Below, one piece after another: positions 61,483-62,421 of a stretch of DNA of 64,000 nt (positions within the stretch are counted from its first letter, which is position 1; every line of letters starts with the position of its first letter). The notes beneath the pieces are model-generated. The model was not told where the DNA came from. It did not search any database and saw only the letters and a program-made list of their open reading frames with translations. The translations under genes were made by a program, and so were the position numbers. The stretch comes from a virus, in IMG/VR virus record IMGVR_UViG_3300044846_005433, positions 3,143 to 67,142 of that record; one strand, 5' to 3'.

Positions 61483-61763
61483 AAACACTAATCACTAGTT
61501 TGTTATTGTTGGTCAGCGGAGTAATTTCGGCACAAGTGGATCAAACAAAGAAACCGCTCGTAAACGAGTATACAGTTTCTACCCCAGCAAAAGACAGTTT
61601 ATTCATCTTAGATTGTGAAGCCGGCCGCAGAATGCGTGAAATCTGGCAAAAGGATCCTGAAGATAATGGATATTGCCCAATTATTGTAATGGTATCTGAT
61701 CTTACCCCAATCAAGCAACGTTTTAATTATAACTCATCTAAAAATAAAAGAAAAAAGTCATGA
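61479..61763 (+). CDS. Hypothetical secreted protein
   Basis: Signal-peptide-like start MKTLITSLLLLVSGVISAQ. Confidence 0.6.
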   Translation: MKTLITSLLLLVSGVISAQVDQTKKPLVNEYTVSTPAKDSLFILDCEAGRRMREIWQKDPEDNGYCPIIVMVSDLTPIKQRFNYNSSKNKRKKS

Positions 61764-62188
61764 CAATTGCACAAGCACTAAAAGAAAAGAACAAAAAAGT
61801 CTCTAAAATTCAAAAATTGTGGAGCCGTATTTCGCAACATAACTCATCAATTGAGGGTGCAGAAAAGCCATACGATCTTGAGGCTACTTGGGAAGAATAT
61901 AATGCAGAGGTTACTTCTCTAATTGAGCTAAAGACCAAGATTCATACTGCTTCTGCTCCAGTAAGAGACCAAATCTTTACTCTTTCTGAATTAAAGACTA
62001 AAGTCAATAACGTTCGTAGTTTAAACACGACAAACGGGCGTTATCGTGACAGATATGCTGACGATTCAGTAGAAATGGAAGCTCACTTTGATATTAAGTG
62101 GAAAGATTCGCAAATGGATCTAATCGAAGGTCAATTGGATGCAATCCAAGAAAAATTGGATCATTTTAATAATACTACCCAGATCTAA
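61760..62188 (+). CDS. DIP1984-like coiled-coil protein
   Basis: M.IAQAL N-terminus, NS..EG...YD, LK.KI..A and C-terminal IQEKLDHFNNTTQI follow the DIP1984 family pattern as recalled. Confidence 0.7.
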   Translation: MTIAQALKEKNKKVSKIQKLWSRISQHNSSIEGAEKPYDLEATWEEYNAEVTSLIELKTKIHTASAPVRDQIFTLSELKTKVNNVRSLNTTNGRYRDRYADDSVEMEAHFDIKWKDSQMDLIEGQLDAIQEKLDHFNNTTQI

Positions 62189-62191
62189 TAT

Positions 62192-62390
62192 GGGCGTCTG
62201 ACACTAGAAGTATTATCTGTAGCATAATATCAGACTGGCACGTCTATACAAATTCTGACAGAATGATGCACGATTAAGATAGCGATTTTCTCAAAATTCA
62301 AGACACAAGAGTTCAAAAAGCAAACCTCACTCGTTCAAAATTCAATTTAATTATTCTACTTATCTTACGGCTTTTGAAGGATGCCCACCA
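62192..62390 (+). ncRNA. Candidate structured non-coding RNA with periodic CAA loop and ACCA 3' end
   Basis: Closing stem GGGCGTC/GATGCCC plus ACCA; three small internal hairpins; stem TAAGATAG/TTATCTTA encloses eight CAA/CAC units at 7-8 nt spacing. Confidence 0.6.
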
Positions 62391-62393
62391 TAT

Positions 62394-62421
62394 AAAAAAA
62401 GGACCAAATTGGTCCTTTTTT
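62394..62421. terminator. Bidirectional intrinsic terminator
   Basis: AAAAAAAGGACCA-AAT-TGGTCCTTTTTT. Confidence 0.9.

What the first reader, a model, noticed from the sequence alone, without database searches (positions are those of the whole stretch)
61760..62421. Candidate protein-RNA system: DIP1984-like coiled-coil gene followed by a structured RNA with a periodic CAA loop
Seen: 3 nt after the stop codon a ~200-nt non-coding segment begins, bounded by a terminator. Its ends pair (GGGCGTC 62192-62198 with GATGCCC 62380-62386). Inside are three small hairpins: TATTAT/ATAATA 62211-62229, AGAC/GTCT 62232-62245 and ATTCT/AGAAT 62252-62264. A further stem (TAAGATAG 62275-62282 with TTATCTTA 62360-62367) closes a ~77-nt G-poor loop. 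In that loop CAA recurs at 62292, 62299, 62306, 62314, 62321, 62328 (CAC), 62336 and 62343, with spacings 7,7,8,7,7,8,7 and variable bases between. Known: regularly spaced triplets in single-stranded RNA are how oligomeric rings such as TRAP bind RNA. Inference: the helical protein oligomerises and binds one CAA per subunit, forming a ribonucleoprotein. It could be a toxin/RNA-antitoxin pair, a scaffold or a defence/anti-defence device. I know of no description of this pairing.
Basis: partly seen in the sequence, partly recalled or inferred. Interest (0 to 1): 0.9.

Follow-up and report, generated by a model that had tools for sequence, protein, structure and literature searches.

The report
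Phage gene with heptad-repeat partner RNA
Right behind a small helical-protein gene of unknown function, this large freshwater phage encodes a conserved, folded RNA of about 200 bases that carries a row of evenly spaced 7-base units; gene and RNA travel together in dozens of phages and some bacteria and match no catalogued RNA family, so they probably form an undescribed protein-RNA particle.

Summary
The core observation is real. Directly after the DIP1984/DUF6847-like gene (61760-62188) lies a non-coding element (62192-62390) followed by a terminator (62395-21). No Rfam family and no tRNA/tmRNA matches it. An element of the same build follows the homologous gene in 53 of 62 related loci by covariance model at E<=0.01, and in five more at E<=0.023. 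These are phage contigs, Bacteroidota MAG contigs and one huge phage. The 5' and 3' ends form a long covarying rod. It encloses a single-stranded rail of 3-4 GAU units and then 6-8 UCAARAU units spaced 7-8 nt apart. The protein has the fold of 3KDQ, has a basic N-terminal helix, and is predicted to self-associate. Neighbouring genes vary between loci, so gene plus RNA behave as a two-part mobile module. Direct protein-RNA binding and the biological role are inferred, not shown. Best reading: the RNA is cut from the co-transcript (tRNA-like GGGC...GCCC-ACCA end) and arrays the protein on the rail. I found no paper or catalogue entry for it. This scan has already noted the same module on other DNA (e1-5281358, e1-6118144 and others). 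Canonical DIP1984 genes on Acinetobacter and Enterococcus plasmids also have downstream non-coding regions with apparent closing stems.

The parts
61760..62188 (+). Gene for a 142-aa helical protein, a distant DIP1984/DUF6847 relative. The N-terminal helix is basic (+6 over residues 1-27) and the rest is acidic (-9).
   Evidence: ORF. Pfam DUF6847 E 5.1e-6, 26.9 bits, cut-off 27. NCBIfam DIP1984_fam E 6.4e-10, 39.4 bits, cut-off 70. AF2 model pLDDT 92.8. 3kdq_A: Z 13.4, rmsd 2.5 A, 140 residues aligned; Foldseek TMq 0.76-0.82. Charges.
62192..62390 (+). Predicted mature non-coding RNA of about 199 nt, running from G of GGGCG to A of ACCA.
   Evidence: R1 hit 62189-62394, 62.5 bits, E 1.6e-13. 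R2 hit 96.5 bits, E 6.6e-16. No Rfam or ARAGORN match. RNA-library contigs lie at 62210-62387 (X2), 62215-62388 (X10) and 62206-62406 (X1). The exact ends are inferred.
62192..62228 (+). 5' strand of the closing rod P1. It has 26 predicted pairs in seven short helices separated mostly by 2x2 loops.
   Evidence: MFE fold. Cognate duplex -29.2 kcal/mol against -16.2 +/- 3.7 for 40 non-cognate partners, none as good. Covariation of the 18 modelled P1 pairs.
62232..62245 (+). Hairpin P2 (AGAC/GUCU, loop UGGCAC).
   Evidence: Pair probability about 0.4. Relatives have a hairpin at this place, with loop AGCAAA or similar in the closest group. RNA-library contigs and L002 read T at 62237, in the loop.
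62265..62290 (+). Four GAU units at 62265, 62272, 62278 and 62284, spaced 7, 6 and 6 nt: the first part of the rail.
   Evidence: There are 3-4 GAU units at 6-8 nt in nearly all elements printed.
62291..62349 (+). Eight (U)CAA units spaced 7,7,8,7,7,8,7 nt, with family consensus UCAARAU. The stretch is G-poor and predicted mostly unpaired.
62350..62386 (+). 3' strand of the closing rod P1.
62387..62390 (+). Unpaired ACCA tail. Together with the 7-bp base of P1 it resembles a tRNA acceptor end.
   Evidence: Sequence. RCCA follows GCCC/ACCC in 9 of the 13 closest elements aligned. It is absent from the more distant groups. Two RNA-library contigs from two studies end at 62387 and 62388.
62395..62421 (+). 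Intrinsic-terminator-like hairpin with a T run.
   Evidence: A comparable hairpin lies 167-208 nt after the stop in 29 of 34 distinct elements scanned.

Best explanation
This is a two-part module: a small DIP1984-fold protein and a dedicated structured RNA of about 200 nt made from the same transcript.

Shown:
- The RNA element is conserved next to the gene.
- Its two ends form a long covarying rod.
- The rod encloses a single-stranded rail of about 12 units of 6-8 nt (GAU x4, then UCAARAU x8).

Inferred:
- The transcript that starts upstream reads through the gene into the RNA and stops at the terminator.
- In this phage clade the base of the rod plus ACCA mimics a tRNA acceptor end. RNase P would then cut before G62192, and the 3' end would be trimmed to about 62390, releasing a stable RNA.
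- Protein dimers dock side by side on the rail through the basic N-terminal helix, roughly one per unit. One RNA would thus array or sequester about 10 protein units, and the rod would protect both ends.
- The particle most likely serves a conflict-type function (holding the protein in check, or presenting it as an array). This guess rests on its patchy, mobile distribution in phages, plasmids and islands. The role is not shown.
For: Conserved linkage:
- Model R2 finds the element directly downstream on the same strand in 53 of 62 phage-type loci at E<=0.01. Five more score E 0.004-0.023 and L069 scores 0.26 when the nine misses are searched alone.
- Protein identities run from 99% down to about 35%.
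- Neighbouring genes differ between groups: topoisomerase II and gp23 capsid genes, ECF sigma/WYL/DUF932, M48 and M14 peptidases, methylases.

Structure:
- On 45 distinct rows, 83.0% of cells pair, against 58.5% in shuffles (0 of 500 reach it) and 41-49% when partners are slid. All 18 P1 pairs show changes on both sides.
- In an alignment-free test, cognate 5'/3' flanks pair better than flanks from other groups: mean z -2.45; no non-cognate partner as good in 19 of 41; at most 3 as good in 33 of 41.
- In P1 there are 45 G-U cells against 11 A-C cells, which fits an RNA of the + strand.

Rail: spacing statistics and unit consensus.

Protein:
- Self-association is predicted (ipSAE 0.69 against best control 0.38; the runs agree in at least 95% of contacts; partner pLDDT at least 86). 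Residues 1-20 and 111-142 lie outside the named interface.
- The N-terminal helix carries net +4.9 on average over 28 homologues; the rest carries -6.1.
- The invariant residues A6 L7 K8 K10 N11 K12 lie in that helix.

Transcript:
- No promoter-like site lies between 61480 and 62192. The terminator is at 62395-62421.
- In RNA library X10 the only contig laid on the 1.5-kb stretch is 62215-62388.

Specificity: of 115 viral loci listed for a rail-like pattern, only the 5 with the gene about 100 nt upstream have the element.
Against: - No experiment or computation here shows that the protein touches the RNA. The complex tool takes no RNA.
- The predicted protein interface is a symmetric pair, not a ring or a filament, and may be recalled from 3KDQ.
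- The RNA libraries are contigs. They cannot show ends, strand or level, and DNA may be present in them. In X3 the gene is covered but the RNA part is not. The RNA contigs start at 62206-62215, not at 62192.
- The ACCA end is missing from 4 of the 13 closest elements and from all the distant groups, so RNase P processing cannot be the general rule.
- The number of units varies. Rails I measured by hand from the print span about 67-98 nt, which argues against one fixed stoichiometry.
- Adjacent features share ancestry, so co-occurrence alone does not prove a physical complex.
- The pair counts were made on alignments fitted to the model.
Confidence: 0.5

Rival explanations
1. The RNA works on its own as a decoy or sponge. 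The unpaired UCAARAU/GAU rail would soak up a host RNA-binding protein or a sequence-specific ribonuclease, for example a toxin or defence nuclease that cuts A-rich sites. The adjacent protein would act in the same pathway without binding the RNA.
For: The rail is a multivalent, G-poor, unpaired tract held out by a protective rod. The module is mobile and sits mostly in phages. From recall, multi-site sponge RNAs (CsrB/RsmZ, CrcZ) and phage pseudo-ToxI repeats work this way.
Against: The linkage to one small protein family holds across very different genomes. More distant family members carry rails with other unit sequences: UUAAAAG in L069 and CACNNNN in L066. That fits a co-evolving cognate partner better than one host target. 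No target is known.
Confidence: 0.2
2. It is a cis-acting 3' untranslated region. The rod and terminator would stabilise or regulate the mRNA of the DIP1984-like gene, perhaps by autoregulatory binding, and no separate RNA would be released.
For: The element starts 3-10 nt after the stop codon in most loci. No promoter-like site lies before it. X1 contigs overlap across the junction: 61855-62222 and 62206-62406.
Against: A conserved multi-unit rail of 170-205 nt is far more than end protection needs. In L003 about 130 nt, and in L069 a small ORF, separate the gene from the RNA, yet the element is kept. In X10 the only contig laid is the RNA part. The acceptor-like GGGC...GCCC-ACCA end suggests excision.
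Confidence: 0.15
3. It is a diverged member of a known tRNA-like RNA class (tmRNA, Y RNA/YrlA, or a T4-type small stable RNA) that happens to lie beside this gene.
For: A 7-bp acceptor-type stem plus ACCA. In L035 and L045 the module lies beside tRNA genes. Y RNAs are also closed by a 5'/3' stem and lie next to their protein gene, and M. smegmatis YrlA is cut by RNase P (PMC4201824, passages read).
Against: ARAGORN finds no tRNA or tmRNA. No Rfam family reaches threshold, and the best hits by E-value are terminator look-alikes. I see no T arm before the 3' strand. No TROVE protein is found in the record, which is only 26% complete. The heptad spacing of 7/7/8 nt is incompatible with a conserved tag reading frame. 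Distant groups lack the ACCA end.
Confidence: 0.05
4. It is a DNA-level element: iterons of a replication origin, or a packaging or recombination site with inverted repeats.
For: Three units span about 22 bp, close to two turns of DNA. The flanks are inverted repeats.
Against: The stems tolerate G-U but rarely A-C (45 against 11 cells), so they are strand-specific. The stem sequences covary rather than being conserved. A terminator follows. The stretch appears as contigs in RNA libraries. The element also occurs in bacterial chromosomal and mobile-element contexts.
Confidence: 0.03

Closest known systems
DIP1984 family / Pfam DUF6847 (PF20935), NCBIfam NF038048; crystal structure 3KDQ (Corynebacterium diphtheriae); often annotated 'septicolysin' on Acinetobacter plasmids
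   Same: The fold is the same over the whole length: Z 13.4, rmsd 2.5 A, 140 residues. Size and helix/beta-hairpin order agree. The canonical loci I read also have 170-330 nt of non-coding DNA downstream, with apparent closing stems in four of them (L070, L074, L071, L066). L070 and L074 share sequence blocks, and their closing stems differ in sequence.
   Different: The sequence match is below both curated cut-offs. Model R2 hits none of the 7 canonical loci, so homology between the RNAs is not shown. The family has no tested function: the paper library holds no occurrence of DIP1984, DUF6847, PF20935 or NF038048.
HutP on hut terminator RNA, and TRAP on the trp leader
   Same: Homo-oligomers read short motifs at regular spacing in single-stranded RNA. 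HutP reads XAG three times with U4 spacers in the crystallised RNA, a 7-nt period, on each face of a hexamer (PMC2425495). TRAP reads 11 (G/U)AG repeats (PMC3064811, abstract in the listing).
   Different: The protein folds are unrelated. No small-molecule ligand is known here. Those RNAs are 5' leaders that control a downstream operon. Here the RNA follows its own partner's gene, is closed by a long rod, and seems to be a free RNA.
Ro60 (Rsr) with bacterial Y RNAs (Yrn1, YrlA)
   Same: The RNA is encoded beside its protein gene on the same strand, its 5' and 3' ends form a long stem, some have a tRNA-like part cut by RNase P, and the pair is found in bacteria and phages (PMC4201824).
   Different: No TROVE protein is found in this record. 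No Rfam Y RNA family matches. There is no T arm. Y RNAs have no heptad rail.
SmpB with tmRNA
   Same: A small protein gene is followed by an RNA whose paired ends finish in ACCA and enclose a long unstructured stretch. The gene order smpB-ssrA in E. coli is recalled, not tested here.
   Different: ARAGORN finds no tmRNA. There is no T arm and no conserved tag frame. The protein folds are unrelated.
Type III toxin-antitoxin systems (ToxIN, CptIN, TenpIN)
   Same: A two-part mobile protein-RNA module on plasmids and phages, with tandem repeats in the RNA (recalled knowledge).
   Different: In those systems the RNA lies upstream of the toxin gene, the repeats are about 36-45 nt and are cut out by the toxin, and the toxin is an endoribonuclease fold. 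Here the units are 7 nt inside one structured RNA, and the protein is a helical bundle. The only PADLOC hit is a weak LmuB match (E 0.0022).

Membership tests
DIP1984 family (NF038048) / DUF6847 (PF20935) | Profile match above the curated cut-off | tested here: not met
   NF038048 scores 39.4 bits against a cut-off of 70. PF20935 scores 26.9 bits against 27. The E-values are 6.4e-10 and 5.1e-6. This is a significant but sub-threshold match, so a distant subfamily.
DIP1984 family (NF038048) / DUF6847 (PF20935) | Fold of the solved member 3KDQ over the full length | tested here: met
   3kdq_A: Z 13.4, rmsd 2.5 A, 140 of 142 residues. The next best rows score Z 9.3 or less and cover only residues 1-67. 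Foldseek gives TMq 0.76-0.82.
tRNA / tmRNA | Detected by ARAGORN or by the Rfam tRNA/tmRNA models | tested here: not met
   ARAGORN finds 0 genes in the window. No Rfam family reaches its gathering score. Neither family appears among the E<=10 hits in 62150-62450.
tRNA / tmRNA | Acceptor stem of 7 bp followed by NCCA | tested here: met
   GGGCGUC pairs with GAUGCCC, followed by ACCA, with pair probability 1.0. RCCA is present in 9 of the 13 closest relatives.
tRNA / tmRNA | T arm (5-bp stem with a UUCRANY loop) directly before the 3' acceptor strand | tested here: not met
   By reading 62350-62379, no such hairpin exists. That stretch forms the 3' strand of the rod.
Y RNA (Ro60/Rsr partner) | A TROVE-domain protein encoded nearby (within about 4 kb, same strand; PMC4201824) | tested here: not met
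   PF05731 finds nothing in the 67-kb record. The record is only 26% complete, but the flanking 4 kb is covered on the 5' side and about 1.6 kb on the 3' side.
Y RNA (Ro60/Rsr partner) | Match to the Rfam Y RNA/YrlA models | tested here: not met
   No such match at the gathering score or at E<=10.
Type III toxin-antitoxin | RNA repeats of about 36-45 nt upstream of an endoribonuclease toxin gene (ToxN/AbiQ-type fold) | tested here: not met
   The RNA lies downstream. Tandem Repeats Finder sees no array in it. The units are 7-8 nt. The protein is a helical bundle. No PADLOC toxin model hits.
TRAP/HutP-type readers of periodic RNA | Oligomeric protein that binds regularly spaced triplets | not testable with these tools
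   The periodic units are shown. Self-association is predicted only as a symmetric pair. RNA binding cannot be modelled here. The fold is unrelated, so this is at most an analogy.

The most novel reading that the evidence does not exclude
DIP1984-fold proteins in phages, plasmids and bacteria may as a rule come with their own 'rail' RNA. Protein units would polymerise on a row of 7-nt units whose sequence is lineage-specific: UCAARAU here, UUAAAAG in one huge phage, CACNNNN in a G+C-rich bacterium. This would be a matched protein-RNA code and a new class of ribonucleoprotein particle. In this T4-like clade the particle would be released by the tRNA-processing machinery and used in phage-host conflict, for example as an RNA-gated store of an effector or as a sensor or decoy for RNA damage.
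Probability: 0.3. Interest if true: 0.9.

Novelty: categorically new. Interest (0 to 1): 0.75.

Why it matters
If the pairing is physical, it adds a widespread protein-RNA particle to the short list known from bacteria and phages (tmRNA-SmpB, Ro-Y RNA, 6S-RNA polymerase, type III toxin-antitoxin).

- It would give a first functional handle on a domain of unknown function. That domain has had a solved structure since 2009 and carries the 'septicolysin' label on some of the Acinetobacter plasmid records listed.
- It would offer a natural example of a protein reading a 7-nt register along RNA, which could be used for RNA scaffolding.
- The phage subfamily is large. The protein atlas holds clusters of 149, 620 and 97 members that are 86-98% viral.
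- The element is picked up in lake and freshwater RNA libraries of several studies, though only four runs were laid.

Tried and rejected
Searches and tests that gave nothing useful:
- Rfam at the gathering score on the window and on 8 related or canonical loci gave only tRNAs elsewhere. Rfam by E-value on 62150-62450 gave only terminator look-alikes.
- ARAGORN found nothing.
- blastn against GenBank phages found nothing.
- tblastn against phages found only two unannotated huge-phage records. The canonical protein found only Acinetobacter and Enterococcus records. No cultured phage with the phage-type module was found.
- PDB sequence searches gave nothing significant.
- BFVD gave only uncharacterised phage proteins, with TMq 0.45-0.61.
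- PHROGs gave nothing. PADLOC gave only a weak coiled-coil match to LmuB.
- Tandem Repeats Finder sees only a 21-nt repeat inside the gene, not the rail.

Readings considered and dropped:
- A tmRNA-like tag frame. A 22-codon frame exists in the window, but the 7/7/8 spacing and indels in relatives break it.
- GAU units pairing with UCA units. Only 3 nt are complementary, and the base before GAU is not conserved.

Leads and tests that failed or stayed open:
Four canonical chromosomal loci lie among housekeeping genes. Three annotated plasmid loci show no RtcB or Rsr, and the gene tables of that collection are incomplete. No paper links septicolysin with RtcB, Rsr or Ro60. The only hint is a HAD_SAK_2 gene near the module in 8 of 66 loci.
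- The nucleotide-identity comparison of gene and rail was uninformative: 0.65-0.79 against 0.69-0.77 with a lenient aligner.
- The R2 search of 151 Bacteroidota genomes found nothing, not even in G001, which holds L049. It therefore shows nothing.
- The R2 hit on the minus strand of L012/L013 (6001-6146) lies inside an ORF and has no rail, so it is a false positive.
- Strict counting of TCA at 7/8 nt under-detects degenerate rails: 42 of 61 loci have 2 or more such spacings and 25 have 3 or more. I therefore counted presence with the covariance model.
X3 covers the gene of a relative but not the RNA.
- P2 with an AGCAA-type loop is not family-wide. About 8 of 42 elements have it; the script flagged 17 of 42 with any GCA-containing loop, several of them at other places.

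Paper supplements were closed and I did not ask for them. The supplementary tables of PMC4201824 list the phages with Y RNAs, and I could not compare them.
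Full report
**What is there.**
The window is the larger part of a 67-kb virus record, estimated 26% complete. Near its right end lie T4-type topoisomerase II genes, a GMP-reductase-like gene, two small ORFs and a 142-aa ORF at 61760-62188.
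- The ORF matches Pfam DUF6847 (E 5.1e-6, 26.9 bits, cut-off 27) and NCBIfam DIP1984_fam (E 6.4e-10, 39.4 bits, cut-off 70).
- It has no PHROG. Its only PADLOC hit is a weak coiled-coil match.
- Three bases after the stop a non-coding stretch begins. It ends in a terminator-like hairpin at 62395-62421.
- ARAGORN finds no tRNA or tmRNA anywhere in the window.
- No Rfam family reaches its threshold. The best sub-threshold hits only copy the terminator.

**Checking the observation.**
- The CAA run is the longest run of any trinucleotide at 7/8-nt spacing on either strand of the 64-kb window.
- The stretch folds better than shuffles, with z -3.6.
Hairpins 62211-29 and 62252-64 and the stem 62275-82/62360-67 have pair probabilities of 0.05 or less. 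Enforcing them costs 8 kcal/mol.
- Instead, 62192-62228 pairs with 62350-62386 as one interrupted rod of 26 pairs.
- The 62232-45 hairpin is plausible (probability 0.4).
- Four GAU units (62265, 62272, 62278, 62284) precede the eight (U)CAA units. The periodic rail therefore spans about 62265-62349.

**Relatives.**
- A protein-based scan of viral contigs gave 46 loci at 99-34% identity.
- The genome collection gave 18 loci on Bacteroidota MAG contigs.
- GenBank phages gave two huge uncultured phages.
- The DNA after the stop codon shows the same build almost everywhere: a 5' strand, a hairpin, 3-4 GAU units, a row of UCAARAU units, an A/U-rich 3' strand and a terminator.
- A terminator lies 167-208 nt after the stop in 29 of 34 distinct elements scanned.
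- A covariance model built from nine close sequences (R1) found the window at E 1.6e-13 and found many distant loci.
- A second model built from those hits (R2) found the element directly behind the gene in 53 of 62 phage-type loci at E<=0.01.
- When the nine misses were searched alone, five scored E 0.004-0.023, L069 scored 0.26, and L024, L042 and L061 gave nothing. By eye, L024 and L061 do carry rails.
- The only hit away from the gene (L012/L013, minus strand) lies inside an ORF and is a false positive.
- The own record has one copy.

**Structure.**
The sequences of the closing rod differ completely between groups, yet they stay complementary.
- On the model-fitted alignment of 45 distinct rows, 83.0% of cells pair. 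Shuffles give 58.5% (0 of 500 reach the observed value) and slid partners give 41-49%. All 18 P1 pairs have changes on both sides (a similar result on 33 rows). Fitted alignments lean towards the model.
- I therefore added an alignment-free test. The first 50 nt after the stop pair more strongly with their own 3' region than with 3' regions from other groups. Mean z is -2.45. No foreign partner is as good in 19 of 41, and at most three are as good in 33 of 41. The exceptions are L008, L031, L034, L036, L040, L042, L044 and L065.
- G-U cells outnumber A-C cells 45 to 11 in P1, as expected for an RNA of the + strand.

**The rail.**
- Across 42 elements, successive TCA spacings of 7 nt make up 29% (2.8% in dinucleotide shuffles). 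Spacings of 8 nt make up 10% (2.6%), with echoes at 14-15 nt. Related sequences are not independent, so these are descriptive figures.
- The unit consensus is U-C-A-A-R-A-U.
- The rail is predicted mostly unpaired in the window.
- More distant family members carry other units: UUAAAAG in the huge phage L069 and CACNNNN in the canonical bacterial locus L066.

**The protein.**
- The AlphaFold model is confident (pLDDT 92.8). It has four helices and a beta-hairpin.
- The only clear structural relative is 3KDQ, the C. diphtheriae protein of unknown function: Z 13.4, 140 residues, rmsd 2.5 A. All other rows are generic helical hairpins.
- The N-terminal helix is basic (+6 here; mean +4.9 over 28 homologues) and the rest is acidic. 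The invariant A6 L7 K8 K10 N11 K12 lie in that helix.
- Four copies folded together gave ipSAE 0.69 against 0.38 for the best control. That mark was reached by 20 of 30 proteins solved as pairs and by 1 of 23 solved as single chains. The runs agree in at least 95% of contacts, and partner pLDDT is at least 86.
- The interface is a symmetric pair through residues 21-110, which leaves residues 1-20 and 111-142 free. The model supports self-association but does not show it. The pass may reflect memory of 3KDQ. The calibration used two copies and other alignments.

**Context.**
- Neighbours differ between groups. In the T4-like clade they are topoisomerase II genes upstream and convergent DUF5856 and gp23 capsid genes downstream. 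In one MAG group they are WYL, DUF932 and an ECF sigma factor. In another they are peptidases and a GNAT. Elsewhere they are methylases, adenylosuccinate synthetase and a HAD_SAK_2 gene.
- The profile NF038048 hit 2 of 301 sampled genomes of one phylum, the seed genome included, and 4 of 401 of another. The family is therefore sparse and patchy.
Only the 5 loci with the gene about 100 nt upstream carry the element. Of the other 110 I took the 10 with three or more 7/8-nt spacings, read three of them and ran R1 on nine. They were coding repeats or simple tandem repeats, and none matched the model over its full length.

**Expression.**
- Twenty-two RNA libraries from 17 studies share words with the 1.5-kb stretch, most of them at a small share.
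- I laid four runs. X10's only contig is 62215-62388. X2 has 62210-62387 plus two contigs in neighbouring genes. X1 covers nearly everything and reads on past 62406 into a relative's sequence. X3 covers the gene of a relative but not the RNA.
- Two contigs from two studies stop at 62387 and 62388, just before the terminator and 2-3 nt short of the ACCA end.
- Contigs cannot show ends, strand or level, and DNA may be present in these libraries. This is a weak hint only.

**Canonical family.**
- The canonical protein of L066 finds 369 plasmid records, 340 of them Acinetobacter, annotated 'DIP1984 family protein' or 'septicolysin'.
- I read seven canonical loci: L066 and L070-L075. In L075 my script read the wrong strand, so that locus gave no usable downstream read. 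The other six have 170-330 nt of non-coding DNA after the gene. A terminator closes it in L070, L071 and L066.
- Four of the six (L070, L074, L071, L066) have apparent closing stems in the folds and the sequence.
- L070 (A. baumannii) and L074 share sequence blocks, and their closing stems differ in sequence. L072 and L073 also share blocks.
- R2 hits none of the seven canonical loci, and Rfam has nothing for the three scanned, L066, L070 and L071. A companion RNA seems to be a family trait, but homology of these RNAs to the phage RNA is not shown.

**Interpretation.**
- The element is a real, conserved, structured RNA, with near certainty.
- That it is the physical partner of the adjacent protein is the simplest reading of the linkage, the multivalent unpaired rail, the basic free helix and the lineage-specific units. 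It remains an inference; I put it at about 0.5-0.6.
- In this clade the GGGC...GCCC-ACCA end, with U before G62192, looks like an RNase P substrate. [quoted passage not shown] Four of the 13 closest elements and all distant groups lack it.
- The function is unknown. A conflict-type role is a guess from the distribution.

**Literature and earlier notes.**
- The paper library holds no occurrence of DIP1984, DUF6847, PF20935, NF038048 or IPR047741. The two papers that contain '3KDQ' are on unrelated topics, judged from the listing only.
- 'Septicolysin' occurs in 35 papers. The 20 listed mostly describe plasmids or genomes, judged from the listing only.
- No paper joins septicolysin with RtcB, Rsr, Ro60 or RNA repair.
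- This scan's own notes describe the same gene-plus-RNA pair on other DNA and reach the same reading. They are not independent evidence.

Noticed in passing
L003:3427-3556: In this relative (64% protein identity), a G+C-rich insert of about 130 nt sits between the stop codon and the 5' GGGC of the RNA. It matches no Rfam family. The RNA behind it is intact.
   Followed up: partly
L035:4237-6217 and L045 (about 260 nt after the stop): In two phage contigs the module lies beside tRNA genes. L035 has five Rfam tRNA hits downstream.
   Followed up: partly
L069:3459-3800 (LR756511.1, huge phage): A small lysine-rich ORF lies between the DIP1984-like gene (about 28% identity) and an RNA whose rail units read UUAAAAG instead of UCAARAU.
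   Followed up: partly
L066:1211-2300: A canonical DIP1984 gene in a G+C-rich genome lies directly after two tRNA genes and is followed by a T-arm-like piece and five CACNNNN units. This looks like an insertion at a tRNA site that carries its own rail-like RNA.
   Followed up: partly
L070:2956-3300 (A. baumannii plasmid pHKU6a) and L074: The plasmid gene labelled 'septicolysin' in some records is a DIP1984 family protein. About 220 nt downstream are closed by a 10-bp stem, and L074 shares sequence blocks with a closing stem of different sequence. No Rfam match in L070; L074 was not scanned.
   Followed up: partly
L031, L033, L062 (upstream) and L040-L044 (downstream): A gene with a HAD_SAK_2 domain (the HAD domain of 'Swiss Army Knife' RNA repair proteins) lies next to or near the module in 8 of 66 loci.
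   Followed up: partly
window:61146-61196: A terminator-like hairpin (61146-61160) is followed by a promoter-like site (61167-61196) just before the 88-aa ORF. This suggests a transcription unit 61200-62421 that ends with the RNA.
   Followed up: no
window:62237: RNA-library contigs of three runs read T instead of G here, in the P2 loop, as does the 99%-identical contig L002.
   Followed up: no
window:62111-62162: Tandem Repeats Finder reports 2.5 copies of a 21-nt unit inside the 3' part of the DIP1984-like gene. It encodes the last helix.
   Followed up: no
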